A stretch of 62,864 bases of DNA, filler included, from Deltaproteobacteria bacterium (GTDB taxonomy: Bacteria; JACQOV01), in the NCBI GenBank assembly GCA_016202395.1. It is 5 parts of 5 records of this genome, joined end to end, with 100 filler letters (N's around TTAATTAATTAA, not from the genome) between each part and the next. Parts side by side here need not be neighbours in the genome. Positions count along the whole stretch, not along the records: positions 15,615 to 38,409 come from JACQOV010000003.1; 4 more parts are not named here. One strand, 5' to 3'. The first letter of the stretch is position 1; every line of letters starts with the position of its first letter. A model generated the notes under the pieces. It was not told where the DNA came from. It ran no database searches and was given only the letters and a program-made list of their open reading frames with translations. The position numbers and the translations under genes are program-made. Positions 14,561 to 48,345 of this stretch are shown in pieces.

Positions 14561-14982
14561 GCTTTCCCCAATGGGTCCATCTTCAAGGCCTGATAATCCA
14601 GAAATTCTCTGGGATTTAAAATTTTCAAGGGTTCTGGAGGCTTGCCATAGTCCTTTTTATTTCCGGTGATTAAAACGTTCGCATTCCCCGCAAGCGCTAC
14701 CTCCAGAAAAGGGAGGTCGCTGACATCGGGAATTGCGAAGGGGAGTGGGGTGGCGATGACAAATTCTCCCATCTGATCGATCACCTCCATGAGCTCATTC
14801 ACATCTTCTTCATCAAATCCAAATTTGGGTCGCTTGAGTACCGCTTGGTATTCATCGAGGATTCGTTCATCGATTAGAATGGCCACAGCTTCTTGTAGAA
14901 TGAGATTCAATACCCTAGCGGAAGGGCCTTGAGAGGTTAAAAGAGCCGACACAAGAACGTTGGTATCCAGAACAACTCTCAC
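14557..14982 (-). CDS. PIN-domain toxin (PIN_3/VapC-like)
   Basis: MRVVLDTNVLVSALL, DLPFLEVA, LITGNKKDY. Confidence 0.9.
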   Translation of the reverse strand: MRVVLDTNVLVSALLTSQGPSARVLNLILQEAVAILIDERILDEYQAVLKRPKFGFDEEDVNELMEVIDQMGEFVIATPLPFAIPDVSDLPFLEVALAGNANVLITGNKKDYGKPPEPLKILNPREFLDYQALKMDPLGKA

Positions 14983-15266
14983 GAACGGCGCTCCATCCGC
15001 GCCTTCTTAATCTCGTTATCAATCTCTTTGAGCGTCATTCGACCCGATCCTCGTTTTTGTGCTGTTTTTCTCATCTTACGGATGATCCATCCTGCCCTGG
15101 TTCGACGAACCGCCGCTAGGATCTCTTCGAGATTGCTTGAAGAGATCCCCGTCATCAAAGCCACCGGTCTCCCGTTGGAAGTAACAATTAGATCTTTTTC
15201 CTTCTCTAGTTTTTCCCATACCTTGCCGGTATAAATCCTCAAATCTCTGACGCTCACAAATTCCAT
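14979..15266 (-). CDS. Phd/YefM-like antitoxin
   Basis: FVSVRDLR...LIVTSNGRPVALM; overlaps toxin start. Confidence 0.85.
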   Translation of the reverse strand: MEFVSVRDLRIYTGKVWEKLEKEKDLIVTSNGRPVALMTGISSSNLEEILAAVRRTRAGWIIRKMRKTAQKRGSGRMTLKEIDNEIKKARMERRS

Positions 15267-15304
15267 ATTTCCTCCTTAGTTGGACACCTTAATGTAGCTC
15301 AGAA

Positions 15305-15333
15305 AGGATAACATTTAAGTAACGATATGTCAA
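15305..15333 (-). promoter_or_regulatory. sigma70 promoter of TA operon
   Basis: Minus strand TTGACA-17 nt-TATCCT. Confidence 0.7.
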
Positions 15334-15350
15334 CGTTTTCGGCAAAGACT

Positions 15351-15428
15351 AGGGGTCAGGTCGCGTGTTGAACAATTCTGGCGTTGCCAAGTACGAGTCC
15401 ACACGCGACTTGATCCTCTTATGACCCC
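15351..15428. repeat. Imperfect palindrome (GGGGTCAGGTC...GACCTGACCCC type REP-like)
   Basis: Arms ggggtcaggtcgcgtgt / acacgcgacttgatcct pair with G-U mismatches. Confidence 0.55.
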
Positions 15429-15437
15429 ATAGAGGTG

Positions 15438-15514
15438 CTGAAGAGGTTGAGATACATCGGTAACAGTGGGAGTATTGATGGGAAGATGGGGTAGAGGGAG
15501 GTATAGTGGGGCTA
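15438..15514 (+). mobile_element. Probable IS left end (IS481-like), cut by contig end
   Basis: 76 of 77 nt identical to 48086-48162; both copies run into assembly gaps; TG...ACATCGGTAACA resembles IS481-type ends. Confidence 0.55.
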
Positions 15515-15614
15515 NNNNNNNNNNNNNNNNNNNNNNNNNNNNNNNNNNNNNNNNNNNNTTAATTAATTAANNNNNNNNNNNNNNNNNNNNNNNNNNNNNN
15601 NNNNNNNNNNNNNN
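15515..15614. other. Artificial contig linker
   Basis: N44-TTAATTAATTAA-N44 (stops in six frames). Confidence 0.98.
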
Positions 15615-16093
15615 TCCAGATCTCCCAAAGGGATGCTCCGATTCATTACGGCGTATCGTTTGAGAAGTTCGATCATCTCTTCGTTTACAAGTTCTTTGGA
15701 AATAATGTGAGGTGTGGGGAGCCCTTTTTGTTCTTTATAAATTTCAGGATTCCAGCCACTGAGTTGTCCGCCAAAAATACTAATGGTCTGTCGAACTCCA
15801 GCCCCTGGCGCCATGTAGAGATCTCCCTGGTAGACATTGATAGTTTTCTCAACCTTCGAGGTAGGACTGAGATGAACATTCCCCCCAACAACGGTGATCG
15901 AACCGTGCACCTCCCCATCCACATGAACATTCCCATCGACCACAACAATATCTTGAACTTGCTCTTGAAGATGGAGGTAGACATTACCCCCTTTTTTCAT
16001 CATGGAGTGGAATTCTTCCGCGCCTTGCAACGGAAACAATGGAAGGGAAAGAATCAGAAATCCCATCAATAACAGCTTTTTTAGAGGATACAT
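15615..16093 (-). CDS. Exported/membrane protein with bactofilin-like beta-helix repeats, 3' truncated
   Basis: Signal-like N-terminus; repeated V-V-x-G-N-V-H-x-x-G-x-V units; runs into gap. Confidence 0.6.
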
Positions 16094-16101
16094 CCGCTAC
16101 C

Positions 16102-16584
16102 TCAATTCAATACAAGATCAAAATCGCTCATCCCTTCAACTTTCTTCGGGGAAGTAACAAAGAAAGTATTGTGCTGAGCCAAAATCATCTGTTGATCCAC
16201 CTGAATGAAAGAACCTTCGGCGCTGAGTCGGATATAAATCTCCGGCTCGGTCCTCATCTCTTCAGCGGTCCAAATTCCCACAAAGAAAAGTAAAACGATA
16301 GCAAAACTAGCCCCCACTTTGGCCCATCGGGGAAACCAAATTTTTTTGGTTTCTTCCCGTTCGATTCTTTCGCGCAATGTTTCAAGGAGGCCAGGGACTC
16401 GTGGTTTAAAAATTTCGTTTTGGCGAGTTTGGGTGTAGAGAGAGAGGGAATTTTCAAAATTTTCAACGGCTTTTTGACAGGAGGGGCAATGTTCCATATG
16501 GCGTCTGGCCGCCGCCTCCTTTTTAGGCGACGCGAATTTCTCTTGTGCTAAGGTATGGACTTTCTGAGCCGTTCGACACCACAT
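16102..16584 (-). CDS. Anti-sigma factor (zf-HC2 zinc finger plus TM helix)
   Basis: C...HMEHCPSC (HxxxCxxC), TM segment VGASFAIVLLFFVGIW; downstream of ECF sigma. Confidence 0.8.
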   Translation of the reverse strand: MWCRTAQKVHTLAQEKFASPKKEAAARRHMEHCPSCQKAVENFENSLSLYTQTRQNEIFKPRVPGLLETLRERIEREETKKIWFPRWAKVGASFAIVLLFFVGIWTAEEMRTEPEIYIRLSAEGSFIQVDQQMILAQHNTFFVTSPKKVEGMSDFDLVLN

Positions 16585-16609
16585 ACGCTTTACACCCTCT
16601 CTTAGTAGT

Positions 16610-16637
16610 TAGATGCCAGTACTCTACGAAACGTTCA
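16610..16637 (-). promoter_or_regulatory. Putative ECF sigma promoter 2
   Basis: TGAAC-gtttcgtagagtactgg-CATCTA; same layout as 16953-16980. Confidence 0.7.
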
Positions 16638-16698
16638 CTGAAAAATCAACACAAAGTTTATGTCCTAAAATCATTTTGTTTTCAATGTGTTATATAGT

Positions 16699-16899
16699 TT
16701 ATCCTTTCACGCAGGGTTCTGAAGAGGCCGCATCGGCGGTTTCCTCTCCCTTTTCTGCACATGCCCCGGCTTTCTCTTCCACTGAGGACTGCTGTTCCTG
16801 CTCTACGGCAGTCACCTCCAGAGCGCTCTGGGAGGTTTTGTTCCCAGATCCTGCGGCAAGACTTAGAATAATTCCAATAATTGCAATGACAACTCCCAT
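16699..16899 (-). CDS. Small membrane-anchored acidic protein
   Basis: AAGGAGG RBS, hydrophobic N-terminus, E/A/S-rich tail with two Cys; own ECF-like promoter. Confidence 0.6.
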   Translation of the reverse strand: MGVVIAIIGIILSLAAGSGNKTSQSALEVTAVEQEQQSSVEEKAGACAEKGEETADAASSEPCVKG

Positions 16900-16952
16900 G
16901 TTCGTTTCCTCCTTTGATGTAGATTAGATTACAATTGCCTTTTTCTGATTAT

Positions 16953-16980
16953 TGGATGCCGCGATGATTCGAAACGTTCA
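16953..16980 (-). promoter_or_regulatory. Putative ECF sigma promoter 1
   Basis: TGAAC-gtttcgaatcatcgcgg-CATCCA. Confidence 0.7.
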
Positions 16981-17022
16981 TGGGGTGCTTAGCCCCGCGG
17001 GTCCAAGCCACTGAGGGAATTT

Positions 17023-17577
17023 TTAAAGATGAGGGGTGAGGAGTTTTTCTAATCGCTTGCGGGCGTTAAAAAGGCGAGAACGGACAGTCCCCTCGGGGAC
17101 GCTTAAGATGGCGGCCATTTCAGGAGTTTCTAGATTTTCGTAGTAACGTAGATGCAAAATCAGACGAGATTCTTCAGGCAGCTGATCGAGAAGAGATCGA
17201 ATGAGTGAGGATTGTTCAAAATCGATGAGCTTCTCTTCTGCTGAAGAAAGAGGAGGATCCATTTCCTGCGCCAGTTCCTCTGTCCTTTCTCTCTTCCACC
17301 ACGACCAACGGCGATGTTTCCTCATCTCTTCTAGAGAGGTATTCACCGTAATTCGATAAAGCCAGGTCTTAAAACTGGACTCCCCTTTAAAATCTTTGAG
17401 CTTTTGATAGACCTGGAAAAAAGTCTCTTGAACAACGTCTCCTACCATCGATTCGTCTTTAACAATCGATTGAACTAGGCGAATCGTCTCTTTCTCATAC
17501 TTTTGAACGAGCTGCTCAAAAGCAGCATAGCCTCCATCCAAAATCTTTTGAATTAGAGCGGGATCGTCCAAAACCAT
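17023..17577 (-). CDS. ECF RNA polymerase sigma factor
   Basis: DVVQETF, SSFKTWLYRITVN (region 2), GTVRSRLFNARKRL (region 4). Confidence 0.93.
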   Translation of the reverse strand: MVLDDPALIQKILDGGYAAFEQLVQKYEKETIRLVQSIVKDESMVGDVVQETFFQVYQKLKDFKGESSFKTWLYRITVNTSLEEMRKHRRWSWWKRERTEELAQEMDPPLSSAEEKLIDFEQSSLIRSLLDQLPEESRLILHLRYYENLETPEMAAILSVPEGTVRSRLFNARKRLEKLLTPHL

Positions 17578-17585
17578 TCTATCCT

Positions 17586-19190
17586 CTACGTTTTAAGCGC
17601 TAAGGATAGCACGTTCTTCCGTAAAATTGCAGAAGCCGTCAAAACCCCTCCGAACAATGCCCCTGTAACTCCCGCCGTCGTGATATCCTGACCCGTGAGA
17701 TAAAGATGGCGAATGGGGGTTTGAGGACGCAGAAATTTTTGAGAAAAACGGGAAGGGGTGTGTTGTAATCCATAAATGGCCCCTCCTACATGATTAGTAA
17801 AATGTTCTGTCGATAGGGGGGTCGATAATTCATAATAATCGACTTTCCCCTGTACTTGTGGAACATATCGATAGAGCTGTTCCAACAGGCGCTCCGCGAG
17901 TTGCTGTTTGTAACTGTCGTATTTCGCATCACGATGCTGCCACGCGGTCCCTTTCCATGGAGCAAACCATTCATAAGGAGTAAAACCGATAATCTCTATT
18001 GTCGATTTTCCAGGATAACGAGTTTGAAACGTGGGATCCTTTTCCGAAGGGAATGAGATGTAGGTGATCGGTAGCGGGCTTGAAGGATCTTTGAGATAAC
18101 GGGATAAATTCTCTTCGTGACGATGATCGGGATAGATCCACAAATTGGAGGATCGGAGATTTAACTCTTTGCCGGTATGCGCAAGTCCTGCGTAAAGGCA
18201 GATGTGACTCCAAGAGGTTTCAACTTGTTCGACTTTACAATCGAGTTCGTGTTTTCTCATAACCTCTACAGGAAGGAGTCGAGTAAAAGTATTGATCAGC
18301 CCTGCATCGCTAACAATCTCTTTTGCTCGAATGACACGGCCATCTTTCATTTGAACACCAACGGCACGATCCTTCTCCACCAAGATTTTGGAGACCTCCG
18401 CACGAACCAAAATCTTTCCTCCAACTCGGTCAATGAGAGGAGCAATCGATGCAGCAATTTGTGAACTTCCCCCTACCGGATAGGCCCCTCCATTGAAATA
18501 ATGATGAGCGACCATTGCGTGAATCGCGAAGCTGCTCAAGGCGGGAGGCAAACCGTAGTCGCCGTATTGAGCGGTTAAAACCCCAATCAATTCTTGGTTT
18601 CGCGTAATCCCTTCGAGAACCTCTCGAGTGGTTTTAGAGGCATGTTTGAGGAAAGAGGCGCGCAAAACTCCTCCGAACAACTTCGAAGGGAGAGAAGGGA
18701 TAGATTTATCCAAAAAATAGAGCCGGGCTGAACCGACACAATCCCTCACCAATTCCAAATAGCGATCGATGGCAGAGGCCTCTTGAGGGAAATACGATTT
18801 CATCTTTTCACGAAAACGCTCTCTCCCTGCAACAAAATCGTAAACTTTGTCCCCCATGTGGATTCGGTCATAAACTTCATCCATCTCCGACCATTGAAGT
18901 TTGCCATCCGTGATGTGATCAAAGAGCCTACGCAATAACGAATGGGGACGATGAACCTCCCCGATATAATGGAGTCCCACATCCCATTCATAGTCAGGGC
19001 GCTCAAAAACATGGGTGAATCCTCCGGCCACGTAATGGCGTTCCAAAACAAATACTTTTTTATGAGCGTGCTTGGCTAACAAAGCCGCAACGGCGAGCCC
19101 TCCAATCCCTGAGCCAATCACGATGACATCGGGATTTTCATCTCCGGAATAGCGTTTGTACGATTCTCCCACTTTTAAGGCCATTGGCAT
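17586..19190 (-). CDS. FAD-dependent CrtI/CrtISO-family oxidoreductase, retinol saturase (RetSat)-like
   Basis: DVIVIGSGIGGL, AGGFTHVF..EWDVGLHYIG, DHITDGKLQW, GAYPVGGSS, STPLST, LRPQTPIRHLYLTGQDI. Confidence 0.85.
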   Translation of the reverse strand: MPMALKVGESYKRYSGDENPDVIVIGSGIGGLAVAALLAKHAHKKVFVLERHYVAGGFTHVFERPDYEWDVGLHYIGEVHRPHSLLRRLFDHITDGKLQWSEMDEVYDRIHMGDKVYDFVAGRERFREKMKSYFPQEASAIDRYLELVRDCVGSARLYFLDKSIPSLPSKLFGGVLRASFLKHASKTTREVLEGITRNQELIGVLTAQYGDYGLPPALSSFAIHAMVAHHYFNGGAYPVGGSSQIAASIAPLIDRVGGKILVRAEVSKILVEKDRAVGVQMKDGRVIRAKEIVSDAGLINTFTRLLPVEVMRKHELDCKVEQVETSWSHICLYAGLAHTGKELNLRSSNLWIYPDHRHEENLSRYLKDPSSPLPITYISFPSEKDPTFQTRYPGKSTIEIIGFTPYEWFAPWKGTAWQHRDAKYDSYKQQLAERLLEQLYRYVPQVQGKVDYYELSTPLSTEHFTNHVGGAIYGLQHTPSRFSQKFLRPQTPIRHLYLTGQDITTAGVTGALFGGVLTASAILRKNVLSLALKT

Positions 19191-19199
19191 CCCTCCTGT

Positions 19200-20006
19200 T
19201 TAAGAAATAAGATTGAATTGTCTCTTAAGGACGTAAGAGAAAATCTTCCCAGGGATTACAGATTTTAGCCGCGGAATCCAAACAGCATCTCTCCCGACGC
19301 GATATCGTAATTTCGGATGTTTTGTTTCCGTAATCCGGGCAATGAGTTGAGCTACCTGAGAAGGATCTTCCCCCGATTCGACCTCTTTCTGAAAAGCCCT
19401 CTCCACCTTCTCACGAATGGAGTCGTAGGCCCTGTTGAGTTGATTTCCCACCTCGACCGAATTGGCAATATTGGTCTTAAAAAAACTGGGCTCAATAATT
19501 GAGACTTGGATATGAAATTGATCCACCTCCAACCGAAGGGATTCTGTAAATCCATCCAAAGCAAACTTACTAGCCACATAAAAGGCTGCACAGGGGACTC
19601 CGATTAAACCCGCCAGAGAACCGACATTGATAATACGCCCCGAATTTTGTCCCCTCATGATAGGGAGGACAGCCTGTGTTACTCGAACCACTCCAAAGAA
19701 GTTCGTTGCAAAGAGAGCTTCGGACTGCCCAATTGAAGTCTCTTCAACGAAACCTCCTAAGCCATACCCCGCGTTGTTGATAAGTACATCGATCCGTCCT
19801 GCTCTTTCCATCACCTGTTTGACACACTGGCGCACGGAGTCCTCGGAGCGGACATCCAGAGCCAACATTTCGATACCATGGATATCCAGGGATTCTTTGC
19901 GGCTCGTACCAAAGACGCGATACCCCTTGGGAACCAGCTGTTCCGCAGTCAATTTTCCAAATCCCGATGAGGCCCCCGTAATTAAAACTACTTTTGCATG
20001 ATCCAT
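19200..20006 (-). CDS. Classical short-chain dehydrogenase/reductase
   Basis: TGASSGFG, NNAG, YVASK catalytic motif, IEPS. Confidence 0.92.
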   Translation of the reverse strand: MDHAKVVLITGASSGFGKLTAEQLVPKGYRVFGTSRKESLDIHGIEMLALDVRSEDSVRQCVKQVMERAGRIDVLINNAGYGLGGFVEETSIGQSEALFATNFFGVVRVTQAVLPIMRGQNSGRIINVGSLAGLIGVPCAAFYVASKFALDGFTESLRLEVDQFHIQVSIIEPSFFKTNIANSVEVGNQLNRAYDSIREKVERAFQKEVESGEDPSQVAQLIARITETKHPKLRYRVGRDAVWIPRLKSVIPGKIFSYVLKRQFNLIS

Positions 20007-20019
20007 ATTTTGATCCCTT

Positions 20020-20796
20020 CTATTCTACTTTTAATGAAATTACCTCAATAATCATTTCGGGAATGCTAGGACCTATTGACCCCTCAAACTTTATAAACCG
20101 ATGAGGAGATTCTCTTGTAAACCAGAAGTAGTAGCTTGGGATAAATCGGTTCGCAACAAAGGAGGTTACGGAGCCCTGCACAATATCTCGAGCATCCGGA
20201 GACATCTTAACACGATAGCATTCCCATTCCCCTGCCGGAATCTTCACCCGTTCCACCCCATCGACCTCGAGATGCATCTGATTGACAATGAAAAAAGAGG
20301 AGGCCGCGTGAAAAGAAATCTTTTGATCCGAATTTTGTAGAACCCCTCGCAGTTCAAAACCAGAATAACCCGGAAGGTAAGTGTCCGAAGGATAAATGGC
20401 GCGAAAGTCCAAACCCGAAAGATCTTGGAAGAGTATCTGCTTCCCTTCGATCCCCCACATGGTTCTTTTTTGATGGATAGGGATAAGCTTTTCTTTAGCT
20501 CCATAAGTCGATTCCGTGAAAATCTTTATCCCGTTCAAGTATTTGACCTTCTCGGTAATCACAATAGAAGGAGACCCATGACCTATTGATTTTTGGATGA
20601 TCGTTTCTCCTATTCCCCGATACATATCAGCTTGTGCTCCTCTTTCGTTCCCTTTTTCCTTCAATTCTATTTTGAATTGATAGATCTCTTTTTCTGAGAC
20701 CATCTGTGGAACCGGGAGTGGTTCCGCAAAAACGTTTGCAAGACAACTCCAAAAAATAAAAAACCCGATCTTATATCGTCTTTTTGTGATTTTCAT
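20020..20796 (-). CDS. Exported hypothetical protein, DUF3108-like
   Basis: Signal peptide; V.GVERVKIPAGEWECYRVKM motif; YFWFT..PHRFIKFEG. Confidence 0.6.
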   Translation of the reverse strand: MKITKRRYKIGFFIFWSCLANVFAEPLPVPQMVSEKEIYQFKIELKEKGNERGAQADMYRGIGETIIQKSIGHGSPSIVITEKVKYLNGIKIFTESTYGAKEKLIPIHQKRTMWGIEGKQILFQDLSGLDFRAIYPSDTYLPGYSGFELRGVLQNSDQKISFHAASSFFIVNQMHLEVDGVERVKIPAGEWECYRVKMSPDARDIVQGSVTSFVANRFIPSYYFWFTRESPHRFIKFEGSIGPSIPEMIIEVISLKVE

Positions 20797-20807
20797 AAAT
20801 CCCCTTT

Positions 20808-22235
20808 CTATTCGTTCTCACCAAAAAATTGACCATGAAAACCAAATGGGATGGGATGAGAGACGGGGGCTCTTCCAATCTCTTCCAAAGTTCTCGCATC
20901 CAGAATGAGTAAAAATGATCTTTCTCTCTTGGAGTCGAGAACAATCGACAACAGAATTCCCTCTCCTTCACTTCGACTCTGAGGGAGGGGAACAAAAACA
21001 GGCTCTCCTGGGTAACAGCCCTCTTCCCACCAGGTCTGCGCTTCTTGAGATGAGACGTCCAATCTTACTAATTGATTGTAAAAATCCTCCTGTGATTTCT
21101 CCCGAACTCCCACTCCATAAACCCATCTGTATTCTTGGGTGTTACAACGGGAGTAATGGATACGAGGAAGCTCTATCGCTTCACGAGAGCGAAATTCCTC
21201 GTTTGCGACATTTCCGTTTAAAGGAATTCGGTATCGTCGGAATAATGTCTTAGCGAATTCTCCCTTATGAACTTCCCGAACTGAATCCAAGTAAAGTTGG
21301 TTCATAACGGAGGCATCGGGATAACCCGAAATATCCATAAATATTTCCCTCCCTCTTTCGAAAGCATTGATATGATGAAAAGAAAAGAAGGCTTCGGTCT
21401 CTGAAACCTTGAGCACTTTTCCATCATTCTTGTCTATGATCCAGAAGCGAGTCCCTCTCTCGGGTGCCCACCTGAAATTCTCAATGAACGGTTTTCCACT
21501 CAAAACGATTTGAATAGGATTAACGACGAGAGGAAATTCCGCAAGAATCAAAAAATGCTCCGTCATCCCAAAACTATGAATGTAGGCCGGCTCTTTGACG
21601 GGGATAGAACAAGTGATCACTCTTTTTTGCGTATCCTCTGGAATCTGATAAAAATGATAGGTGCAAGTCCGAGAAAATTGAAGCCCATAATTTACAAACG
21701 ACTTTTGCCGTACGTCGTAATGAGGATGAGCTGTCGACATACATCGAGAAGAAATACCATAGTCAAAAACTCCAGTGGTTTCTAGTGTGTTGATATCAAA
21801 TTCAACAGCCATGGGGGCTTCCGTCATTGCAATAAACCGCTGGGCAATTTGGGTCACATTGACATTCGCATTGTCTGTAAATTCTGTGAAAAAGAGGGAA
21901 CCCACCCTTCCTAAAAGTGAACGACACGGATCGGTAGCAAACTCCCGATAATGAATTTTTCCTGTCTTTAAGGTTTTTTTGTAAGCCCGACTTTGGAGGT
22001 ATCGATTCGCGTAAGAGACTTTCCCATTCCTGAAAGAAAACTTGTGAAGCATCCCCAACCCATCAAACCAATGACGAAAATTGGCCTTCGCCGTTTCAAA
22101 ACGGGCCGGTCCATTGCGCACAAGCGTCCCGGAAATCCATTCTGGTATTTTTCCTTCCACGGGAAGAGAGTCCAACAGGACTTCATTTTCTAGTGTTCTA
22201 AATCCTAAGGAATATGGGCTGTTTTTTGTTTCCAT
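20808..22235 (-). CDS. Carotenoid cleavage oxygenase (RPE65/BCO family)
   Basis: VEGKIPEWISGTLVRNGP, HWFDGLGM, EFATDPC, four Fe-ligand His (AHPH, IHSF, FHHINAFE, GFHG), GEPVFVP; ATG 22235 after AAGGAG (alternative start 22259). Confidence 0.95.
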   Translation of the reverse strand: METKNSPYSLGFRTLENEVLLDSLPVEGKIPEWISGTLVRNGPARFETAKANFRHWFDGLGMLHKFSFRNGKVSYANRYLQSRAYKKTLKTGKIHYREFATDPCRSLLGRVGSLFFTEFTDNANVNVTQIAQRFIAMTEAPMAVEFDINTLETTGVFDYGISSRCMSTAHPHYDVRQKSFVNYGLQFSRTCTYHFYQIPEDTQKRVITCSIPVKEPAYIHSFGMTEHFLILAEFPLVVNPIQIVLSGKPFIENFRWAPERGTRFWIIDKNDGKVLKVSETEAFFSFHHINAFERGREIFMDISGYPDASVMNQLYLDSVREVHKGEFAKTLFRRYRIPLNGNVANEEFRSREAIELPRIHYSRCNTQEYRWVYGVGVREKSQEDFYNQLVRLDVSSQEAQTWWEEGCYPGEPVFVPLPQSRSEGEGILLSIVLDSKRERSFLLILDARTLEEIGRAPVSHPIPFGFHGQFFGENE

Positions 22236-22261
22236 GAGATTCTCCTTCTTTGTGTTCATGA

Positions 22262-22278
22262 TGTATACAGCGTATACT
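22262..22278. promoter_or_regulatory. Putative TetR operator 2
   Basis: tgtatacagcgtatact, a near copy of the palindrome at 22879-22895. Confidence 0.7.
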
Positions 22279-22294
22279 TCCCGCGCAAAAAAAA

Positions 22295-22879
22295 TTACCT
22301 CTCTAAACCATCCAATATCCGCTGGATAGAAGTTCGGTAGATTTTTTGAAAGTTTTTATCGTTTCGCTCTCCAAAATGCCCCAAGAGAAAAAGTGAAACT
22401 AAACCGTGACTTTGAGCCCAAAGAACCAAGGTCACTTCCATCGGTTCCCCCATTTTCAAAATGCCGGCTCGCATCGATTCTTGAACGCGATCCACCAAAA
22501 ATTGAAATGTAGCATAAGCTTTGTTCTGTATTTCTAGGGGGATTGACTCGCAACCCAACTGTTCTGGAGACATAAAAATCATTTGATAATAACGGGATTG
22601 TTCTAAAGCAAACCGAAGATAAGCCTCCCCTGTCCTGTGCAGTCGGACTTGGGGAGTTCTCCCCTCCAACGCCTGATGCAAATAGCTGCCAAAAATCCGA
22701 AATCCCTCCTCAACTAACTGAAATACAAGATCTTTCCTGTCCTTGAAATGCCGATAAAGAGCCATCGGGCTTAAGCCTACTTGAGCAGCGATCTTCCTCA
22801 TAGAGAGAGCCTTTAACCCTTGTTCGAGATAGATATCTCGAGCACATTCCAAAATGCGCTGGCGTCGCCTAGAATTCAT
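22295..22879 (-). CDS. TetR/AcrR family regulator (WHG-type C-terminus)
   Basis: LSMRKIAAQVGLSPMALYRHFKD HTH; LWAQSHGLVSL. Confidence 0.93.
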   Translation of the reverse strand: MNSRRRQRILECARDIYLEQGLKALSMRKIAAQVGLSPMALYRHFKDRKDLVFQLVEEGFRIFGSYLHQALEGRTPQVRLHRTGEAYLRFALEQSRYYQMIFMSPEQLGCESIPLEIQNKAYATFQFLVDRVQESMRAGILKMGEPMEVTLVLWAQSHGLVSLFLLGHFGERNDKNFQKIYRTSIQRILDGLER

Positions 22880-22915
22880 GTATACACTGTATACAAATTA
22901 CATCTTCTTTGTCAA
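22879..22915 (-). promoter_or_regulatory. tetR promoter overlapped by palindromic operator 1
   Basis: Minus strand TTGACA-18-TACAGT-6 nt-ATG; operator tgtatacactgtataca 22879-22895. Confidence 0.75.
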
Positions 22916-22921
22916 GAGGGG

Positions 22922-24412
22922 CTAAGTGCGGCCGAGGCGCTCCAACTCGCGGATAAAGAGATCCACCAGCTTGGGATCAAATTGAGTTCCTGAACAACGA
23001 CGGAGTTCTTCGACCGCCTCTTGCCGAGTCAAGGCTTTGCGGTAGACCCGGTTTTCTGTCATGACGGTGTAGCTATCGGCAATGGAGATAATTCGGGCTC
23101 CTAGCGGGATCTCCTCCCCTTTTAACTTATCCGGATATCCCTGACCGTTGTGCCATTCGTGATGGTGATAGACCATGGGGACGATATCTTTCAAAAAATG
23201 AATCGGCTCTAAGATCTCTTTGCTTTTAAGAGGATGCTCGTGAAACATCAGCAACTCTTCATCCGTTAAACTACCGGGTTTGTTCAATGAAGATTCCTTG
23301 ACGCCAATCTTTCCAATGTCGTGGAAGAGGCCCGCTTGTCGGATTTTTTCCACCTCCTCTTGAGGCAGTCCTAAAGCCTTCGCAACGATCCCCGCGTATC
23401 GAGAAACGCGCTCGGAGTGTCCACGCGTGTAAGGATCCTTCGCCTCCAGGGCCTTGCAAAGTCCCTCAATCGTTTCATTAAACGTCCGTTTCAAGTCCTC
23501 ATAAAGTCGCGCAATCTCGATGCCAGAGCTGACATGACCGACCAGGAGAGCCAATGCCTTCCTCTCCCCTTCCGTAAACTGACGCTGCGAATCGGTGGAA
23601 TACACAAAGGCCAAGCCAGTGACTTTATTTTTAACCCTGACAGGCAAGGCTAAAAAAGAACTCAATCTCCCTGGGGAGAGGTCCTTAAAATATTTTCCTA
23701 CAAAATCCCCATTCGCTAGAATTGGTTCTTGACGCTGCACCTCTCCTAATATCGCTTCTAAGTTTAATTGGGCCTCCGTCTGCTCCAACCATGGGAGCGA
23801 TTTTCCTTTCCATGACAAACGCGAGAAACTTCCCGACTCCTCCGATAACCAAAGGGAAACAGCCGCCGCATCGACCTCTTCCTGCATGGCCTCTAGAATC
23901 ATCTGAAGTAAAGTTTCTAAACTAACATCGGAACCGGAGGCTTCACTGATTTTATAAAAAGAAAGGGTCCTCTTGAGATGGATATTTTCTCGTTCCAGAT
24001 TTCGGATCGAAAGACCTCGCCGGATCGTCACCTCCAGCTCTTCCAGCTTGAATGGCTTCAGAACATAATCGAAGGCGCCATTCTTCATGGCCTCAATGGC
24101 TGTTTCCACCGTCCCAAAACCGGTCATCATAATGGAAACTAAATCCCCGTTGAACTCATGGATCTTCTCAAGAAGTTCCGTCCCTCTCATGTGAGGCATC
24201 TCCAGATCGATCAAAGCCACATCGAATCGATCGGATTTCAGTTTTTCGAGAGCTTCCACACCGTTGGAAACGCCGCTCACCTCAAACCCAGACCCCTGAA
24301 GAAACTCTGCCACCACTTCCCGGATCGAGGCCTCGTCATCGACCACTAAAACCTTCCCCCCAGAAGCAGGAGGTCGAAGTTTCTCTACTCTCTTGTTCCA
24401 AAATGCCGTCAC
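22922..24412 (-). CDS. Response regulator REC-GAF-HD-GYP (c-di-GMP phosphodiesterase)
   Basis: LVVDDE, DLEMP, KPF; TRGHSERV, FHDIGKIG, HHHEWHNGQGYP, GTQFDP; GTG start overlapping kinase stop. Confidence 0.92.
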   Translation of the reverse strand: MTAFWNKRVEKLRPPASGGKVLVVDDEASIREVVAEFLQGSGFEVSGVSNGVEALEKLKSDRFDVALIDLEMPHMRGTELLEKIHEFNGDLVSIMMTGFGTVETAIEAMKNGAFDYVLKPFKLEELEVTIRRGLSIRNLERENIHLKRTLSFYKISEASGSDVSLETLLQMILEAMQEEVDAAAVSLWLSEESGSFSRLSWKGKSLPWLEQTEAQLNLEAILGEVQRQEPILANGDFVGKYFKDLSPGRLSSFLALPVRVKNKVTGLAFVYSTDSQRQFTEGERKALALLVGHVSSGIEIARLYEDLKRTFNETIEGLCKALEAKDPYTRGHSERVSRYAGIVAKALGLPQEEVEKIRQAGLFHDIGKIGVKESSLNKPGSLTDEELLMFHEHPLKSKEILEPIHFLKDIVPMVYHHHEWHNGQGYPDKLKGEEIPLGARIISIADSYTVMTENRVYRKALTRQEAVEELRRCSGTQFDPKLVDLFIRELERLGRT

Positions 24413-25773
24413 GCCTCCTCCTTTTTCAACTCGATGGGAGAGGGAGGGAGATAAACTGTAAATTGAGTCCACTCCCCGGGCTCGCTCTCCACTTGAATTC
24501 GCCCTCCATGTTCAGTCACAATTTTCATCGCAATCGCAAGTCCCAGGCCGGTTCCTTTCCCCTCCTCCTTCGTTGTAAAAAACGGATCAAAGATTTTGGA
24601 AAGGATCTCTCGCGGAACTCCACACCCAGAATCTTTCACCTGAAAAACAGCCTCGCCATTTTCTGTTTGAAAGCTACGAATGGAAATTTCTCCATTTTTC
24701 TTGGTAGACATCGCGTCCTTGGCGTTGATGAACAGATTCACCGCCACTTGAGACAAAGCCCCTTTCGTCCCATAAATCCTGGGCAAGTGGGGACTCAGAT
24801 CGGTTCGAAGGGTGATCCCGGACCGGCGAATTTCAAATTCGGTAAAAGAGAGAGCCTCCTTTAAAACCTGATTTAAATCGATTTGAGATTTTCCCACCGG
24901 TGAAGAACGGGCAAAGGAGGTCAGACTGCGCGAAAGATCGGTGATCCGATCCACCCCCATCAATATCTTTTTTAACCGATCCATCCACTCGGGGCTAACC
25001 CCCCCCTGTTCTCCCTGAAGGATGGACATTTGAACGTAATTGGAAATCATCGTCAGGGGGTTGTTCAGTTCATGAGCCACACCCGCAGCCATTCGCCCCA
25101 AGGAACTGAGTTTCTCTGTTTGTTCCAAAACCTTCTCCGAGTTGGCCAGGCTCGCAGAGGCCTCCGCGAGTCGCTCGTAACTAGCTTTGAGTTGATGATA
25201 AGCCTCTTGGAGCTCGTCCCCTCTTTGGCGGAGAGCCTTTTCGCGATTGAGAATCCTATTCTTAAAGAGCGTTCCGATCGCTATCACCACCAGGAGCAAA
25301 GCGGTAATATAAGACATCATCGCAAACTCCAAAATTGGCGCGCCATAATGAAGAACTAAAAAAACGAAAATAGCGAGAACGGAGGCATAACTGGCATGGA
25401 GGGTATTATCCATCAGAGAGATTCCTAAAGCTTGAACAACAAAGACGAGAAGGAAAGGAGAGCGAGCCCCTCCGGTTAGAGCGCAAGCCAGTGCGATCAT
25501 CAAAGAGTCTAGGGTAATCGCAACTAAGGTTAATTTTTGAGGCCACCAACCTATGTAACAAGCGCCGTGCAAAAAAAAGGCAAAACCAACGGCGGCCGTA
25601 AAGAGGAAATAGAGAACGGATGGAATTGCAATCACACCCAATTGATCTAAAACAAGCGTGATGATAAACAGGGGAATAAGAGTGAGATAGCGAAGTTGAA
25701 CGCCCCACCAACGGGATGGGTCGATTACCTCCCCTTCAGACCTCTTGCCATGGAGATTTGAATTAAAGGGCAT
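24409..25773 (-). CDS. Membrane sensor histidine kinase
   Basis: Several N-terminal TM helices; AHELNNPL, NLFINAKDA, DSGCG, FDPFFTTK, GTGLGL. Confidence 0.93.
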   Translation of the reverse strand: MPFNSNLHGKRSEGEVIDPSRWWGVQLRYLTLIPLFIITLVLDQLGVIAIPSVLYFLFTAAVGFAFFLHGACYIGWWPQKLTLVAITLDSLMIALACALTGGARSPFLLVFVVQALGISLMDNTLHASYASVLAIFVFLVLHYGAPILEFAMMSYITALLLVVIAIGTLFKNRILNREKALRQRGDELQEAYHQLKASYERLAEASASLANSEKVLEQTEKLSSLGRMAAGVAHELNNPLTMISNYVQMSILQGEQGGVSPEWMDRLKKILMGVDRITDLSRSLTSFARSSPVGKSQIDLNQVLKEALSFTEFEIRRSGITLRTDLSPHLPRIYGTKGALSQVAVNLFINAKDAMSTKKNGEISIRSFQTENGEAVFQVKDSGCGVPREILSKIFDPFFTTKEEGKGTGLGLAIAMKIVTEHGGRIQVESEPGEWTQFTVYLPPSPIELKKEEA

Positions 25774-38409: not shown

Positions 38410-38509
38410 NNNNNNNNNNNNNNNNNNNNNNNNNNNNNNNNNNNNNNNNNNNNTTAATTAATTAANNNNNNNNNNNNNNNNNNNNNNNNNNNNNNNNNNN
38501 NNNNNNNNN
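38410..38509. other. Artificial contig linker
   Basis: N44-TTAATTAATTAA-N44. Confidence 0.98.
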
Positions 38510-48245: not shown

Positions 48246-48345
48246 NNNNNNNNNNNNNNNNNNNNNNNNNNNNNNNNNNNNNNNNNNNNTTAATTAATTA
48301 ANNNNNNNNNNNNNNNNNNNNNNNNNNNNNNNNNNNNNNNNNNNN
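48246..48345. other. Artificial contig linker
   Basis: N44-TTAATTAATTAA-N44. Confidence 0.98.

What the first reader, a model, noticed from the sequence alone, without database searches (positions are those of the whole stretch)
17586..22915. Operon resembling the vertebrate vitamin A pathway: BCO-like oxygenase, SDR and retinol-saturase-like enzyme
Seen: tetR, carotenoid oxygenase, exported protein, SDR and RetSat-like flavoenzyme on one strand, with gaps of only 9-13 nt among the last four genes and a shared operator. Established: in animals BCO1 cleaves carotene to retinal, SDR-type RDHs reduce it to retinol and RetSat makes 13,14-dihydroretinol. The flavoenzyme motifs (D.ITDG.L.W, LRPQ.PI..LYLTGQDI) match my recollection of RetSat better than CrtI. 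No rhodopsin or crt genes are in the window. Inference: an inducible pathway that cleaves, reduces and saturates scavenged carotenoids for catabolism, detoxification or signalling. I know of no described bacterial operon like this, and it is the best candidate new system here.
Basis: partly seen in the sequence, partly recalled or inferred. Interest (0 to 1): 0.82.

Follow-up and report, generated by a model that had tools for sequence, protein, structure and literature searches.

The report
Candidate bacterial apocarotenoid cleave-reduce-saturate operon
An uncultured groundwater bacterium carries, in one repressor-controlled operon, bacterial versions of the three enzyme types that animals use to cut, reduce and saturate carotenoid fragments; the pathway is untested but easy to test.

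Summary
On the minus strand lie tetR, a carotenoid-cleavage oxygenase (CCO), an exported protein, an SDR and a CrtISO/RetSat-type flavoenzyme. The gaps are 35, 11, 13 and 9 nt. A GTATAC-N3-GTATAC palindrome occurs only twice in the window, before tetR and before the CCO. The operon probably runs on into an ECF sigma gene 8 nt downstream.

The CCO is a close relative (605 bits) of NdCCD, the "metazoan-like" archaeal apocarotenoid oxygenase. It is far from stilbene oxygenases. The exported protein has a LolA-like lipid-carrier fold. The flavoenzyme belongs to a large, uncharacterised bacterial family that is auto-annotated as retinol 13,14-reductase, and its model overlays chordate RetSat at TM 0.96. 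The SDR is generic.

The closest analogue is the avian BCO2-RDH12-RETSAT apocarotenoid pathway, not vitamin A synthesis. The whole operon was found in none of 240 related loci. Only sub-modules recur:
- TetR-flavoenzyme in 22 of 80 loci.
- TetR-CCO(-SDR) in one metagenomic clade.

The CCO and flavoenzyme families rarely share a genome: 0 of 36 CCO genomes hold the flavoenzyme, and 9 of 36 flavoenzyme genomes hold any CCO. This is a rare mosaic with a clear but unproven chemical logic.

The parts
22886..22915 (-). Sigma-70-like promoter of tetR (TTGACA-18 nt-TACAGT). It would give a leaderless or nearly leaderless tetR mRNA.
   Evidence: best match in the region, 10 of 12 positions. Promoter-like sites overall are not enriched (7 found, 10.0 expected), so the site counts only because it overlaps operator O1.
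22880..22894 (.). Operator O1, palindrome GTATAC-N3-GTATAC. It abuts the tetR ATG at 22879.
   Evidence: one of only two matches in the window, 0 expected. Sequence read.
22295..22879 (-). TetR-family repressor, 194 aa, with a TetR_C_33 ('WHG') ligand domain.
   Evidence: TetR_N 42.2 bits, TetR_C_33 51.8 bits; the same domain pair in the TetRs beside related CCO and flavoenzyme genes.
22263..22277 (.). Operator O2, the second GTATAC-N3-GTATAC, between tetR and the oxygenase gene.
20808..22259 (-). NdCCD-like carotenoid cleavage oxygenase. The ORF is 483 aa; the likely start is M9 at 22235, giving 475 aa.
   Evidence: 605.7 bits, E 5e-181 to PDB 6vcf/6vcg/6vch (NdCCD). H178, H228, H295 and H475 invariant in 27 of 27 sequences. 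AAGGAG lies before M9.
20020..20796 (-). Exported 258-aa protein of a small, distant DUF3108-like family with a LolA-like fold. Candidate periplasmic carrier of a hydrophobic ligand.
   Evidence: 162 relatives at E<=1e-3 among 1.84 billion representatives; best non-self 32% identity; relatives match DUF3108_like; model pLDDT 91.5; Z 15.5 to 6ntr; Z 9-11 to LolA, VioE and the sponge protein EPD-BCP1.
19200..20006 (-). Classical SDR, 268 aa, probably an NADPH-dependent reductase.
   Evidence: Motifs at TGASSGFG 10-17, NNAG 77-80 and YVASK 143-147, with basic GTSRK at 33-37. The cofactor preference is inferred from recalled SDR rules.
17586..19190 (-). FAD-dependent CrtISO/RetSat-type oxidoreductase. 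The ORF is 534 aa; the likely start is M3 at 19184, giving 532 aa.
17023..17577 (-). ECF sigma factor, 184 aa, 8 nt after the flavoenzyme gene. Probably the sixth gene of the operon.
   Evidence: Sigma70_r2 and Sigma70_r4_2; sigma70-ECF 114 bits against a cut-off of 42.9; junction sequence.
16955..16980 (-). ECF-type promoter-like motif, copy 1 (TGAACGTTTCG-N9-GGCATC), before a 66-aa membrane ORF.
   Evidence: one of two exact copies, with no further match at up to 3 mismatches. The pattern was derived from these two sites.
16699..16899 (-). Small 66-aa ORF with one hydrophobic segment, behind a strong AAGGAGG.
   Evidence: No homology test was run.
16612..16637 (-). ECF-type promoter-like motif, copy 2, before the anti-sigma gene.
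16102..16584 (-). Putative membrane anti-sigma factor, 160 aa, with a zinc-anti-sigma-like H-x3-C-x2-C (HMEHCPSC at residue 29) and one hydrophobic segment near residue 94.
   Evidence: weak anti-sigma match, 23.7 bits against a cut-off of 100; motif positions; no Pfam hit.

Best explanation
This is a six-gene operon, controlled by a ligand-released TetR repressor, that takes up or senses carotenoid fragments (apocarotenoids) and processes them in three steps. The gene order follows the proposed reaction order.

1. TetR sits on two identical palindromes, one over its own promoter and one in front of the oxygenase gene. A hydrophobic ligand releases it (inferred).
2. The exported LolA-like protein carries the water-insoluble substrate across the periplasm (inferred from the fold and my reading of a signal peptide).
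3. The NdCCD-like oxygenase cleaves one double bond of an apocarotenoid, giving a shorter conjugated aldehyde or ketone. The family and the iron site are shown. The substrate class is inferred from 605-bit similarity to NdCCD and from relatives that lie inside crt clusters.
4. The SDR reduces that carbonyl to an allylic alcohol (inferred).
5. The RetSat-type flavoenzyme saturates, or possibly isomerises, a double bond of the polyene (inferred).

The net effect is to shorten and de-conjugate reactive apocarotenals. The most likely purpose is detoxification or use of carotenoid breakdown products that reach a dark groundwater habitat.

Read-through into the ECF sigma gene would couple a small local sigma/anti-sigma circuit to the same signal.

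Evolutionary reading: a TetR-flavoenzyme pair, common in this flavoenzyme clade, acquired an oxygenase-carrier-SDR insert on a low-GC island.
For: **Operon structure**
- Tight, same-strand packing, with a Shine-Dalgarno-like run at every junction.
- Two exact operators, 0 expected by chance. One overlaps the promoter.

**Oxygenase**
- 605.7 bits to NdCCD; all other solved CCDs score 223 bits or less, and stilbene enzymes 91 or less.
- H178 aligns with iron-ligand His172 of NdCCD, and V133 aligns with the occluding Val126 (passages of PMC12051055).
- A TDPCR motif at residues 109-113 sits where metazoan CCDs have PDPC(+) (PMC11142922).
- 15 of 160 loci with NdCCD-like genes have a crtI-family gene directly upstream. 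These 15 form one clade of 16 with support 1.0.
- In the four of those loci scanned, the upstream gene passes the crtI_fam cut-off (569-576 bits against 238); crtB lies beside it in L034, and CrtW- and CruF-like genes (both below their cut-offs) in L015. This ties the oxygenase clade to carotenoids.

**Flavoenzyme**
- 23 of the 120 listed homologues are named retinol 13,14-reductase by JGI.
- TM 0.96 to a chordate RetSat cluster.
- Below the CrtI and CrtISO cut-offs.

**Same three enzyme families act in sequence in an animal**
- Avian BCO2, RDH12 and RETSAT together convert zeaxanthin, through an apocarotenal and galloxanthin, to 11',12'-dihydrogalloxanthin in HEK293 cells (passages of PMC4947394).

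**Regulator links both enzymes**
- TetRs of the same TetR_C_33 type flank the flavoenzyme in 22 of 80 loci and the oxygenase in 6 of 80 metagenomic loci.
- The six TetR-CCO loci show the same two-operator layout with a different palindrome.
- The window's flavoenzyme falls in the 39-member clade (support 0.975) that holds all 22 TetR-linked ones.

**Carrier**
- LolA-like fold: Z 15.5 to 6ntr, Z 9-11 to LolA proteins, Z 10.0 to the sponge protein EPD-BCP1, 8i34. That 8i34 is a carotenoid-binding protein is recalled.
Against: - No biochemical or expression data exist. No RNA run holds the stretch.
- The complete operon was found in 0 of 240 related loci.
- The carrier family is absent from all 240 loci (tblastn; HMM search).
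- 0 of 36 genomes with an NdCCD-like oxygenase hold a RetSat-type enzyme at E<=1e-50. The positive control gave 5 of 5.
- Only 9 of 36 genomes with the flavoenzyme hold any PF03055 oxygenase. The flavoenzyme family therefore does not generally depend on oxygenase products.
- Only 1 of 80 flavoenzyme loci (L098) has an adjacent oxygenase. That oxygenase is 28% identical and convergent.
- The SDRs beside related oxygenases (9 of 160 loci) share only 30-38% identity with this one. The one scanned (L172) matches a different SDR subfamily best.
- The window's SDR has only generic neighbours.
- The oxygenase tree does not place the window's enzyme with the TetR-linked clade. It sits on a long branch with L189 and L190, whose context differs.
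- The window holds no carotenoid synthesis genes, and the rest of the genome could not be searched.
- A CrtISO-like isomerase role for the flavoenzyme is not excluded.
Confidence: 0.45

Rival explanations
1. Co-regulated mosaic with no shared pathway. The TetR-flavoenzyme pair keeps its own unknown substrate, as in the many genomes that lack any oxygenase. The oxygenase, carrier and SDR are an independently acquired module that landed between the two genes. The genes share an inducer class but do not hand intermediates to one another.
For: - TetR-flavoenzyme is the recurrent pair, in 22 of 80 loci.
- 27 of 36 flavoenzyme genomes have no PF03055 gene.
- 0 of 36 oxygenase genomes have the flavoenzyme.
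- The whole arrangement is a singleton.
- The region has low GC, 0.42-0.47 against 0.49-0.53 in the flanks.
Against: - The 9-15 nt junctions with their own ribosome sites, and a single promoter with a two-operator design, argue for selection as one unit.
- The same three families form a proven sequential pathway in birds (PMC4947394).
- TetRs of the same domain type flank both enzymes elsewhere, which suggests chemically related ligands.
Confidence: 0.27
2. Biosynthetic or signalling operon. The cell cleaves its own carotenoids to make a specific reduced, partly saturated apocarotenoid as a signal or membrane component. The LolA-like protein exports it or delivers it to the outer membrane.
For: - Related oxygenases sit inside crt biosynthesis clusters.
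- In at least 5 loci a LolD/MacB-like ABC ATPase gene lies beside the oxygenase, directly downstream in L064. This suggests that some clade members make exported products.
- An ECF sigma gene is co-transcribed.
Against: - No crt genes in the window.
- The habitat label is groundwater.
- A substrate-released TetR at the head of an operon is more typical of catabolic or detoxifying systems (general knowledge).
- The window's oxygenase is outside the crt-linked clade.
Confidence: 0.12
3. A literal vitamin A-like pathway: carotene is cleaved to retinal, reduced to retinol, then saturated to 13,14-dihydroretinol.
For: - The enzyme families match.
- The oxygenase is nearer to animal CCDs than to SynACO.
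Against: - The nearest characterised enzyme, NdCCD, does not cleave bicyclic carotenoids. It served as a negative control on zeaxanthin (PMC9227343 and PMC11142922 passages).
- No rhodopsin or other retinal user was seen among the ORFs scanned.
Confidence: 0.05
4. The operon acts on non-carotenoid alkenes, such as stilbenoids or lignin-derived phenylpropenes. The SDR and flavoenzyme process the resulting aromatic aldehydes.
For: - The CCD superfamily includes stilbene- and isoeugenol-cleaving enzymes (PMC12051055).
- Groundwater carries plant-derived organic matter (general knowledge).
Against: - Stilbene-type enzymes are the most distant solved relatives, at 91 bits or less against 605.7 for NdCCD.
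- The NCBIfam lignostilbene models score 141 and 83 against cut-offs of 800 and 650.
- The occluding residue is Val as in NdCCD. The stilbene enzyme CAO1 has Thr there (PMC12051055).
Confidence: 0.05

Closest known systems
Avian retinal apocarotenoid pathway BCO2 -> RDH12 -> RETSAT (zeaxanthin -> 3-OH-beta-apo-10'-carotenal -> galloxanthin -> 11',12'-dihydrogalloxanthin; Toomey et al. 2016, PMC4947394, passages read)
   Same: The same three enzyme superfamilies (carotenoid cleavage oxygenase, SDR, RetSat-type flavoenzyme) act in the order cleave, reduce, saturate on an apocarotenoid. In the window the gene order follows that reaction order.
   Different: - The animal genes are dispersed and not co-regulated by one repressor.
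- BCO2 cleaves intact carotenoids, whereas the window's enzyme resembles an apocarotenoid-only oxygenase.
- The window's SDR is not shown to be an RDH12 relative.
- The window adds a periplasmic LolA-like protein, a TetR and an ECF sigma.
- No activity has been shown here.
NdCCD, carotenoid cleavage dioxygenase of Candidatus Nitrosotalea devanaterra (PDB 6VCF/6VCG/6VCH; Daruwalla et al. 2020, not readable here; described in PMC11142922, PMC12051055, PMC8866865, PMC7948990)
   Same: - E 5e-181 and 605.7 bits over residues 12-479.
- Database relatives reach up to 57% identity.
- Four-His iron site, occluding Val and the TDPCR motif are conserved.
- It belongs to the same 'metazoan-like' clade.
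   Different: - The physiological role and gene context of NdCCD are not known to me.
- Of the two Nitrosotalea/Nitrosopumilaceae loci, neither shows a linked TetR, carrier or flavoenzyme; L001 has only a distant SDR hit about 3.9 kb away and L002 none.
- The cleavage position I recall for NdCCD (C13'-C14') could not be checked.
Vertebrate vitamin A route BCO1 / retinol dehydrogenases / RetSat (all-trans-retinol 13,14-reductase)
   Same: The enzyme families match. The flavoenzyme model overlays the chordate RetSat cluster at TM 0.96.
   Different: - The oxygenase is not BCO1-like in its expected substrate.
- No retinal-using protein was seen.
- RetSat is a 618-aa enzyme (cluster size), reported as localised to the endoplasmic reticulum (abstract of PMC10784691, seen in the listing). 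The bacterial protein is 532 aa and starts directly at the FAD-binding fold.
Bacterial TetR-RetSat-like gene pairs (found here in Myxococcota, Acidobacteriota and Verrucomicrobiota MAGs and other MAGs)
   Same: - The window's flavoenzyme lies in the same clade (support 0.975).
- The TetRs have the same TetR_C_33 type.
- In 12 of the 22 pairs the TetR lies upstream on the same strand.
   Different: In those loci the two genes are adjacent, 54-232 nt apart. Here three genes lie between them. I know of no characterised member, and the searches found none.
TetR-CCO(-SDR) clusters in metagenome contigs (L165/L166, L172/L176/L180, L179; CCO-SDR in L177 and L183)
   Same: - The TetRs are 35-40% identical to the window's.
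- tetR lies upstream of an NdCCD-like oxygenase with one palindrome at the tetR promoter and a second before the oxygenase.
- An SDR lies directly downstream in five of the eight loci.
   Different: - The operator sequence differs.
- The SDR belongs to a different subfamily.
- There is no carrier and no flavoenzyme.
- These oxygenases form their own clade of 14 (support 0.95), which does not include the window's.
Synechocystis apocarotenoid oxygenase (ACO, PDB 2BIW) with aldehyde dehydrogenase SynAlh1 as an apocarotenal detoxification route (recalled, not read here)
   Same: A bacterial oxygenase acts on apocarotenals, followed by removal of the reactive aldehyde.
   Different: - ACO is a distant relative, about 143-147 bits.
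- The aldehyde is oxidised there, not reduced.
- There is no flavoenzyme and no operon.

Membership tests
Carotenoid cleavage oxygenase superfamily (Pfam PF03055, RPE65) | Full-length match to the family profile above the curated cut-off | tested here: met
   432.5 bits against a cut-off of 27; residues 22-479 on profile positions 3-468 of 469.
Carotenoid cleavage oxygenase superfamily (Pfam PF03055, RPE65) | Four conserved iron-binding histidines | tested here: met
   H178, H228, H295 and H475 are invariant in 27 of 27 aligned sequences. H178 aligns with NdCCD His172, which is named as an iron ligand in PMC12051055.
NdCCD-type apocarotenoid oxygenases | Closest solved relative is NdCCD, with the occluding Val conserved | tested here: met
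   605.7 bits against 223 or less for any other solved CCD. V133 aligns with NdCCD V126.
NdCCD-type apocarotenoid oxygenases | Cleaves apocarotenoids but not bicyclic carotenoids | not testable with these tools
   This needs an enzyme assay. The property is known for NdCCD only (PMC9227343 and PMC11142922 passages).
BCO1/BCO2 (animal carotene oxygenases) | Groups with animal BCOs rather than with another CCD clade | tested here: not met
   animal CCDs score 149-223 bits, far below NdCCD at 605.7. No tree with authenticated BCO sequences could be built.
Lignostilbene / stilbenoid dioxygenases | Reaches the NCBIfam equivalog cut-off | tested here: not met
   141 against 800 and 83 against 650. 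LSD 91, NOV1 79, CAO1 66 bits.
8'-apo-carotenoid 13,14-cleaving dioxygenase (NCBIfam NF052295) | Reaches the equivalog cut-off | tested here: not met
   176.1 bits against a cut-off of 675.
RetSat / all-trans-retinol 13,14-reductase (KEGG-type annotation) | Closer to authenticated RetSat than to CrtISO or CrtI | tested here: inconclusive
   - 23 of the 120 listed homologues carry JGI's RetSat name.
- A chordate RetSat cluster is among the ten nearest models, TM 0.96 over 530 residues.
- No curated RetSat model, solved structure or authenticated sequence was available for a direct comparison or a tree.
RetSat / all-trans-retinol 13,14-reductase (KEGG-type annotation) | N-terminal FAD-binding GxGxxG fold | tested here: met
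   GSGIGG at residues 26-31. NAD_binding_8 41.5 bits and Amino_oxidase 58.8 bits.
RetSat / all-trans-retinol 13,14-reductase (KEGG-type annotation) | Saturates a polyene double bond next to a terminal alcohol | not testable with these tools
   This needs an enzyme assay.
CrtI phytoene desaturase family (TIGR02734) and CrtISO (TIGR02730) | Reaches the curated cut-off | tested here: not met
   crtI_fam 118.2 against 238.1; carot_isom 145.2 against 586.9. For contrast, true CrtI genes beside related oxygenases score 569-576.
Classical short-chain dehydrogenase/reductase | TGxxxGxG, NNAG and a catalytic Ser...YxxxK | tested here: met
   TGASSGFG 10-17, NNAG 77-80, GSLAG from residue 129, YVASK 143-147. 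adh_short 169.6 bits.
Retinol dehydrogenases (RDH8, RDH12, DHRS9 type) | Specific similarity to RDHs above other SDRs | tested here: inconclusive
   - The best NCBIfam matches are generic PRK06179 (296 against 310) and KdsR (264 against 400).
- The PDB best hit is 3m1a; 17beta-HSD1 scores 94 bits and DHRS9 87, among many FabG-type hits.
- The Atlas lists only generic bacterial SDR clusters.
DUF3108 / DUF3108_like (Pfam PF11306, PF21347) | Match above the curated cut-off | tested here: not met
   the window's protein scores 15.7 against 27 and 13.6 against 26. At E<=0.1, 34 and 32 of the 45 aligned sequences (the window's own protein included) match the two families, so it is a distant relative, not a member by the cut-off.
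LolA-like fold (LolA, LolB, LprG, RseB, VioE) | Predicted structure aligns over most of the domain with solved members | tested here: met
   The model has pLDDT 91.5. Z 15.5 to 6ntr over 202 residues; Z 9-11 to many LolA entries, VioE and EPD-BCP1. Foldseek probability is 1.00 for 6ntr, LprG and 3fzx. A shared fold does not prove function.
TetR-family repressor with an operator | TetR_N HTH plus a ligand domain, and a palindromic site at its own promoter | tested here: met
   for the domains. for the palindrome, present twice with 0 expected and overlapping the -10. Binding itself is not testable here.
ECF sigma factor | Sigma-70 regions 2 and 4 only, above the superfamily cut-off | tested here: met
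   TIGR02937 scores 114 against a cut-off of 42.9.

The most novel reading that the evidence does not exclude
This is a natural bacterial counterpart of the animal cleave-reduce-saturate route for carotenoid fragments, packed into one ligand-controlled operon with its own periplasmic polyene carrier. If so:
- the TetR would be an apocarotenoid sensor;
- the NdCCD-like 'metazoan-like' oxygenases and the thousands of bacterial RetSat-type flavoenzymes would gain their first physiological role;
- the three-enzyme logic of animal retinoid and apocarotenoid metabolism would predate animals or have arisen twice.
Probability: 0.3. Interest if true: 0.8.

Novelty: new variant of a known kind. Interest (0 to 1): 0.6.

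Why it matters
Two large prokaryotic enzyme groups have no known physiological role, as far as I know and as far as my searches show. One is the 'metazoan-like' carotenoid oxygenases typified by NdCCD. The other is the bacterial RetSat-type flavoenzymes: over 7,700 database relatives, many auto-named retinol 13,14-reductase.

This operon is the one place found here where both sit under a single repressor, together with a reductase and a lipid-carrier-like protein. The gene order mirrors a pathway proven in bird retina. That turns a vague annotation into a concrete experiment with four proteins, one regulator and two 15-bp operators.

If the reading is confirmed, it would give:
- a bacterial route for turning over carotenoid breakdown products;
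- a possible apocarotenoid biosensor;
- a reference point for the origin of animal retinoid-type metabolism.

If the reading is wrong, the locus is an ordinary TetR-controlled mosaic of redox enzymes.

Tried and rejected
**Steps that gave nothing**
- The window's whole genome is not held, so I could not check for crt genes or a second oxygenase elsewhere in the organism.
- A single-protein locus search with the oxygenase found no relative. The same search with the closest relative of the exported protein, P0242, also found none.
- Alignments A3 and A4 of the exported family were too divergent for a locus search.
- An HMM of that family found no member in any of the 240 fetched loci.
- The NdCCD paper (Daruwalla 2020) is not held, by DOI or by PMC id. 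Its substrate and regiospecificity details are taken from citing papers or recalled.
- Literature searches for a bacterial RetSat homologue or a similar operon: one search listed 15 of 30 papers, none about a bacterial enzyme by title or abstract start. One search listed 15 of 18, none describing such an operon by title or abstract start. Searches returned 0 papers. One search returned animal RetSat papers only. Supplements were not consulted.
- Sequencing runs: four DNA holders from one groundwater study; no RNA holder listed. I did not lay reads.
- Terminator-like and promoter-like sites in the region are no more frequent than in shuffles. I therefore draw no conclusion about internal terminators.

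**Ideas rejected**
- Stilbene oxygenase.
- CrtI or CrtISO membership for the flavoenzyme.
- A sphingolipid role for the SDR. The KdsR model is below its cut-off (264 against 400), and no sphingolipid genes were seen among the ORFs scanned.

**Other checks**
- The contexts of the oxygenase's nearest tree neighbours are unrelated. L189 has an XRE-type regulator and an IS transposase. L004, which has the best SDR match, is also unrelated.
- I did not build a TetR tree, because no background sample of TetR_C_33 proteins was available.

Full report
**1. What is there**

Six genes lie head to tail on the minus strand:

| Gene | Coordinates | Size |
|---|---|---|
| tetR | 22295-22879 | 194 aa |
| Carotenoid cleavage oxygenase (CCO) | 20808-22259 | 483-aa ORF |
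| Exported protein | 20020-20796 | 258 aa |
| SDR | 19200-20006 | 268 aa |
| FAD enzyme | 17586-19190 | 534-aa ORF |

- The gaps are 35, 11, 13, 9 and 8 nt. Every junction has a purine-rich ribosome site.
- The sequence favours CCO start M9 (behind AAGGAG) and flavoenzyme start M3 (behind AGGAGG). These agree with the 475- and 532-aa database records.
- GTATAC-N3-GTATAC occurs exactly twice in 62,864 bases, with none in 100 shuffles. One copy abuts the tetR start codon and overlaps the -10 of the best sigma-70-like match, TTGACA-18-TACAGT. The other lies between tetR and the CCO gene.

**2. The oxygenase**

- Pfam RPE65 scores 432.5 bits.
- Among solved structures the top hit is 6vcf/6vcg/6vch at E 5e-181 and 605.7 bits over residues 12-479. 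PMC8866865 and PMC11142922 identify these entries as NdCCD of Nitrosotalea devanaterra.
- The next hits are animal enzymes: NinaB 223 bits, RPE65 212, C. elegans BCMO 202. Then come Synechocystis ACO at 143-147, plant NCED at 99, and the stilbene-type enzymes LSD 91, NOV1 79 and CAO1 66.
- H178 aligns with NdCCD His172, and V133 with the occluding Val126 discussed in PMC12051055. H178, H228, H295 and H475 are invariant in 27 of 27 relatives.
- A TDPCR motif at residues 109-113 sits where metazoan CCDs have PDPC(+) (PMC11142922).
- According to passages I read, NdCCD is an apocarotenoid oxygenase. It is inactive on bicyclic carotenoids (PMC9227343) and served as a negative control on zeaxanthin (PMC11142922).
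- The original paper is not held. The C13'-C14' regiospecificity I remember is unverified.
- The nearest database relatives reach only 57% identity. They come from Nitrosotalea, other Thaumarchaeota, Ktedonobacteria and unnamed metagenomes.

**3. The flavoenzyme**

- It has the GSGIGG FAD fold.
- It fails the curated cut-offs for CrtI (118 against 238), CrtISO (145 against 587) and CrtD.
- Solved relatives are distant: 4rep at 79 bits and CrtI 4dgk at 49 bits.
- It belongs to a very large bacterial family: 7,777 hits at E<=0.001 among 8,000 scored candidates. The best non-self hits are 54-60% identical and carry source names from Myxococcota, Acidobacteriota, Bacteroidota and Pirellulales.
- By my count, 23 of the 120 listed homologues carry JGI's automatic name 'all-trans-retinol 13,14-reductase' and 5 carry 'phytoene dehydrogenase-like'.
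- The ESM Atlas model of this protein overlays a chordate 'All-trans-retinol 13,14-reductase' cluster at TM 0.96 over 530 residues, row 6 of the 10 structure rows. That is a lead, not a membership test.
- I could not align it with an authenticated RetSat. Whether they match RetSat remains untested.

**4. The SDR and the exported protein**

- The SDR has all the classical motifs. A basic GTSRK follows the second strand, which by recalled SDR rules suggests NADPH use. It has no specific tie to retinol dehydrogenases:
  - The best models are the generic PRK06179 (296 against 310) and KdsR (264 against 400).
  - 17beta-HSD1 (94 bits) and DHRS9 (87 bits) appear among many FabG-type hits.
  - The Atlas lists only generic bacterial clusters.
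- The exported protein has 162 relatives at E<=0.001 among 1.84 billion representatives. The best non-self relative is 32% identical at E 5e-30.
  - 34 of the 45 aligned sequences (the window's own protein included) touch DUF3108_like at E<=0.1. The window's protein itself is below the cut-off.
  - The AlphaFold model is confident: pLDDT 91.5, pTM 0.86.
  - It aligns with a DUF1849 barrel (6ntr, Z 15.5, 202 residues). It also aligns at Z 9-11 with many LolA proteins, VioE, RseB, EPDR1 and the sponge protein EPD-BCP1, 8i34 at Z 10.0. That 8i34 binds carotenoids is recalled.
  - A periplasmic carrier of a hydrophobic ligand is a reasonable inference. It has not been shown.

**5. Is the arrangement found elsewhere?**

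I fetched 80 genome loci around NdCCD-like genes, 80 genome loci around flavoenzyme relatives and 80 metagenome loci around NdCCD-like genes. In each case these were the best 80 of roughly 500-600 confirmed matches, so the sample is not exhaustive.

tblastn with the window's proteins gave the following.
- The full operon is in 0 of 240 loci.
- The exported protein's family is in 0 of 240 loci. The HMM search also found none.
- A RetSat-type gene lies beside an NdCCD-like gene in 0 of 160 loci.
- An oxygenase lies beside the flavoenzyme in 1 of 80 loci: L098, 28% identical and convergent.

Recurrent sub-modules do exist.
- **TetR beside the flavoenzyme.** A TetR 27-37% identical to the window's lies directly beside the flavoenzyme in 22 of 80 loci, 12 on the same strand and 10 divergent. 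The window's flavoenzyme falls inside the 39-member clade (support 0.975) that holds all 22.
- **TetR upstream of the oxygenase.** A TetR 35-40% identical lies upstream of the oxygenase in 6 of 80 metagenome loci and 0 of 80 genome loci. Those six loci have one palindrome at the tetR promoter and a related one before the oxygenase, the same design as here. An SDR follows in L172, L176 and L180, and also in L177 and L183.
  - These oxygenases form one clade of 14 (support 0.95) that excludes the window's enzyme.
  - The SDR of L172, the one scanned, best matches another SDR subfamily.
- **crtI upstream of the oxygenase.** A crtI-family gene lies directly upstream of the oxygenase in 15 of 160 loci, which form one clade of 16 with support 1.0.
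  - In the four scanned loci the gene passes the crtI_fam cut-off at 569-576 bits; crtB lies beside it in L034, and CrtW- and CruF-like genes (both below their cut-offs) in L015.
  - In L064 LolD/MacB-like ABC genes follow the oxygenase.

All 26 aligned TetRs carry TetR_C_33.

At genome level:
- 0 of 36 genomes with an NdCCD-like gene hold a RetSat-type gene at E<=1e-50. The positive control gave 5 of 5.
- 9 of 36 genomes with the flavoenzyme hold any PF03055 gene. The tool's own control gave 2 of 14 named genomes.
- Many of these genomes are MAGs, so absences are soft.

**6. Setting**

- The window is chromosomal. It carries SMC, ATP synthase, mnmG/mnmE, rsmG and parAB.
- AtpD is 98% identical to one JGI metagenome protein and otherwise at most 85% identical. 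The named hits are 'Deltaproteobacteria', 'Thermodesulfobacteriota' and 'Binatota' MAG proteins. The organism is therefore an uncultured lineage.
- The operon genes have GC 0.42-0.47, against 0.49-0.53 for the neighbours. This is consistent with an acquired island.
- The DNA is held by four runs of one study labelled groundwater metagenome. Those runs may include the source sample.

**7. Downstream circuit**

- After the sigma gene, an exact bipartite motif (TGAACGTTTCG-N9-GGCATC) occurs twice on the coding strand. One copy precedes a 66-aa membrane ORF. The other precedes a 160-aa protein with HMEHCPSC (a zinc-anti-sigma-like H-x3-C-x2-C) and one hydrophobic segment.
- I read these as the sigma factor's own promoters. 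That is an inference, and the pattern was derived from the two sites themselves.

**8. Explanation and comparison**

- The best-supported reading (confidence 0.45) is an inducible apocarotenoid-processing operon: carrier, cleavage, carbonyl reduction, then double-bond saturation.
- The closest known system is the avian BCO2-RDH12-RETSAT route, not vitamin A synthesis. Together those three enzymes make dihydrogalloxanthin from zeaxanthin in HEK293 cells (PMC4947394, passages read).
- The main rival (0.27) is a co-regulated mosaic without substrate hand-over. It is favoured by the singleton status of the operon and by the weak genome-level co-occurrence of the two families.
- Lesser rivals are a biosynthetic or signalling role (0.12), literal retinoid metabolism (0.05) and non-carotenoid alkenes (0.05).

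**9. Verdict**

- The genes and the operator are real.
- Each protein is a new member of a known family.
- The combination is a new variant that my searches did not find described.
- It is rare, and its function is untested.

Noticed in passing
window 16102-17577 (motif copies at 16955-16980 and 16612-16637): An ECF sigma gene lies 8 nt after the flavoenzyme gene. Two exact copies of TGAACGTTTCG-N9-GGCATC follow it, one before a 66-aa membrane ORF and one before a ZAS-like anti-sigma gene. This looks like a small autoregulated sigma/anti-sigma circuit switched on by read-through from the TetR-controlled operon.
   Followed up: partly
L010, L012, L015, L019, L024, L033, L034, L043, L064 (genome loci) and L200, L210, L212, L214, L221, L240 (metagenome loci): One well-supported clade of NdCCD-like oxygenases (Chloroflexota, Calditrichaceae and Rhodohalobacter MAGs) has a crtI-family gene directly upstream. 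crtB lies upstream of crtI in L034, and CrtW- and CruF-like genes in L015. In L064 and a few related loci a LolD/MacB-like ABC ATPase and permease follow. This suggests that apocarotenoids are made from the cell's own pigments and exported.
   Followed up: partly
L165, L166, L172, L176, L179, L180 (also L177, L183): A metagenomic clade has tetR, an NdCCD-like oxygenase and an SDR (the SDR in L172, L176, L180, L177 and L183; tetR in the six loci named first). In the six tetR loci a strong TTGACA/TATAAT promoter is followed by a palindrome of the type AAC-N3-GTTCATTTA, and a second copy lies between tetR and the oxygenase. This is the same two-operator design as in the window, with another sequence.
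   Followed up: partly
L083-L154 (22 loci listed): A TetR_C_33 regulator is directly adjacent to the RetSat-type flavoenzyme in Myxococcota, Acidobacteriota, Verrucomicrobiota and other MAGs. It is co-directional in one sub-clade and divergent in another (11-member clade, support 0.998). The Bacteroidota half of the family lacks it. I could find no characterised member.
   Followed up: partly
window 14557-15266: A PIN_3-domain protein (141 aa) overlaps by 4 bases a 95-aa protein with a weak Phd/YefM antitoxin match (25.2 bits, below the 29.8 cut-off). This is a likely type II toxin-antitoxin pair at the edge of the low-GC stretch.
   Followed up: no
window 15515-15614, 38410-38509, 48246-48345, 56991-57090: There are four places where two runs of 44 N are separated by 12 bases, 352 N in all. 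They look like masked or withheld repeats. One pair clips the 3' end of the 176-aa ORF at 15563-16093.
   Followed up: no
window 14500-22900: GC and third-position GC are lower here (0.42-0.47) than in the flanking housekeeping genes (0.49-0.53; GC3 0.51-0.59). This is consistent with horizontal acquisition of the whole block.
   Followed up: partly
window 38931-39842: A 303-aa protein combines MqsA-like and HTH_3 domains with a SocA/Panacea antitoxin domain. It lies in the lowest-GC bin of the window (0.419) and next to an N-masked pair.
   Followed up: no
window 22922-25773: A response regulator with receiver, GAF and HD-GYP domains (NosR-family model 245.8 bits, below the 400 cut-off) and a histidine kinase lie directly upstream on the same strand. 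The tetR promoter starts about 7 nt after the regulator's stop codon.
   Followed up: no
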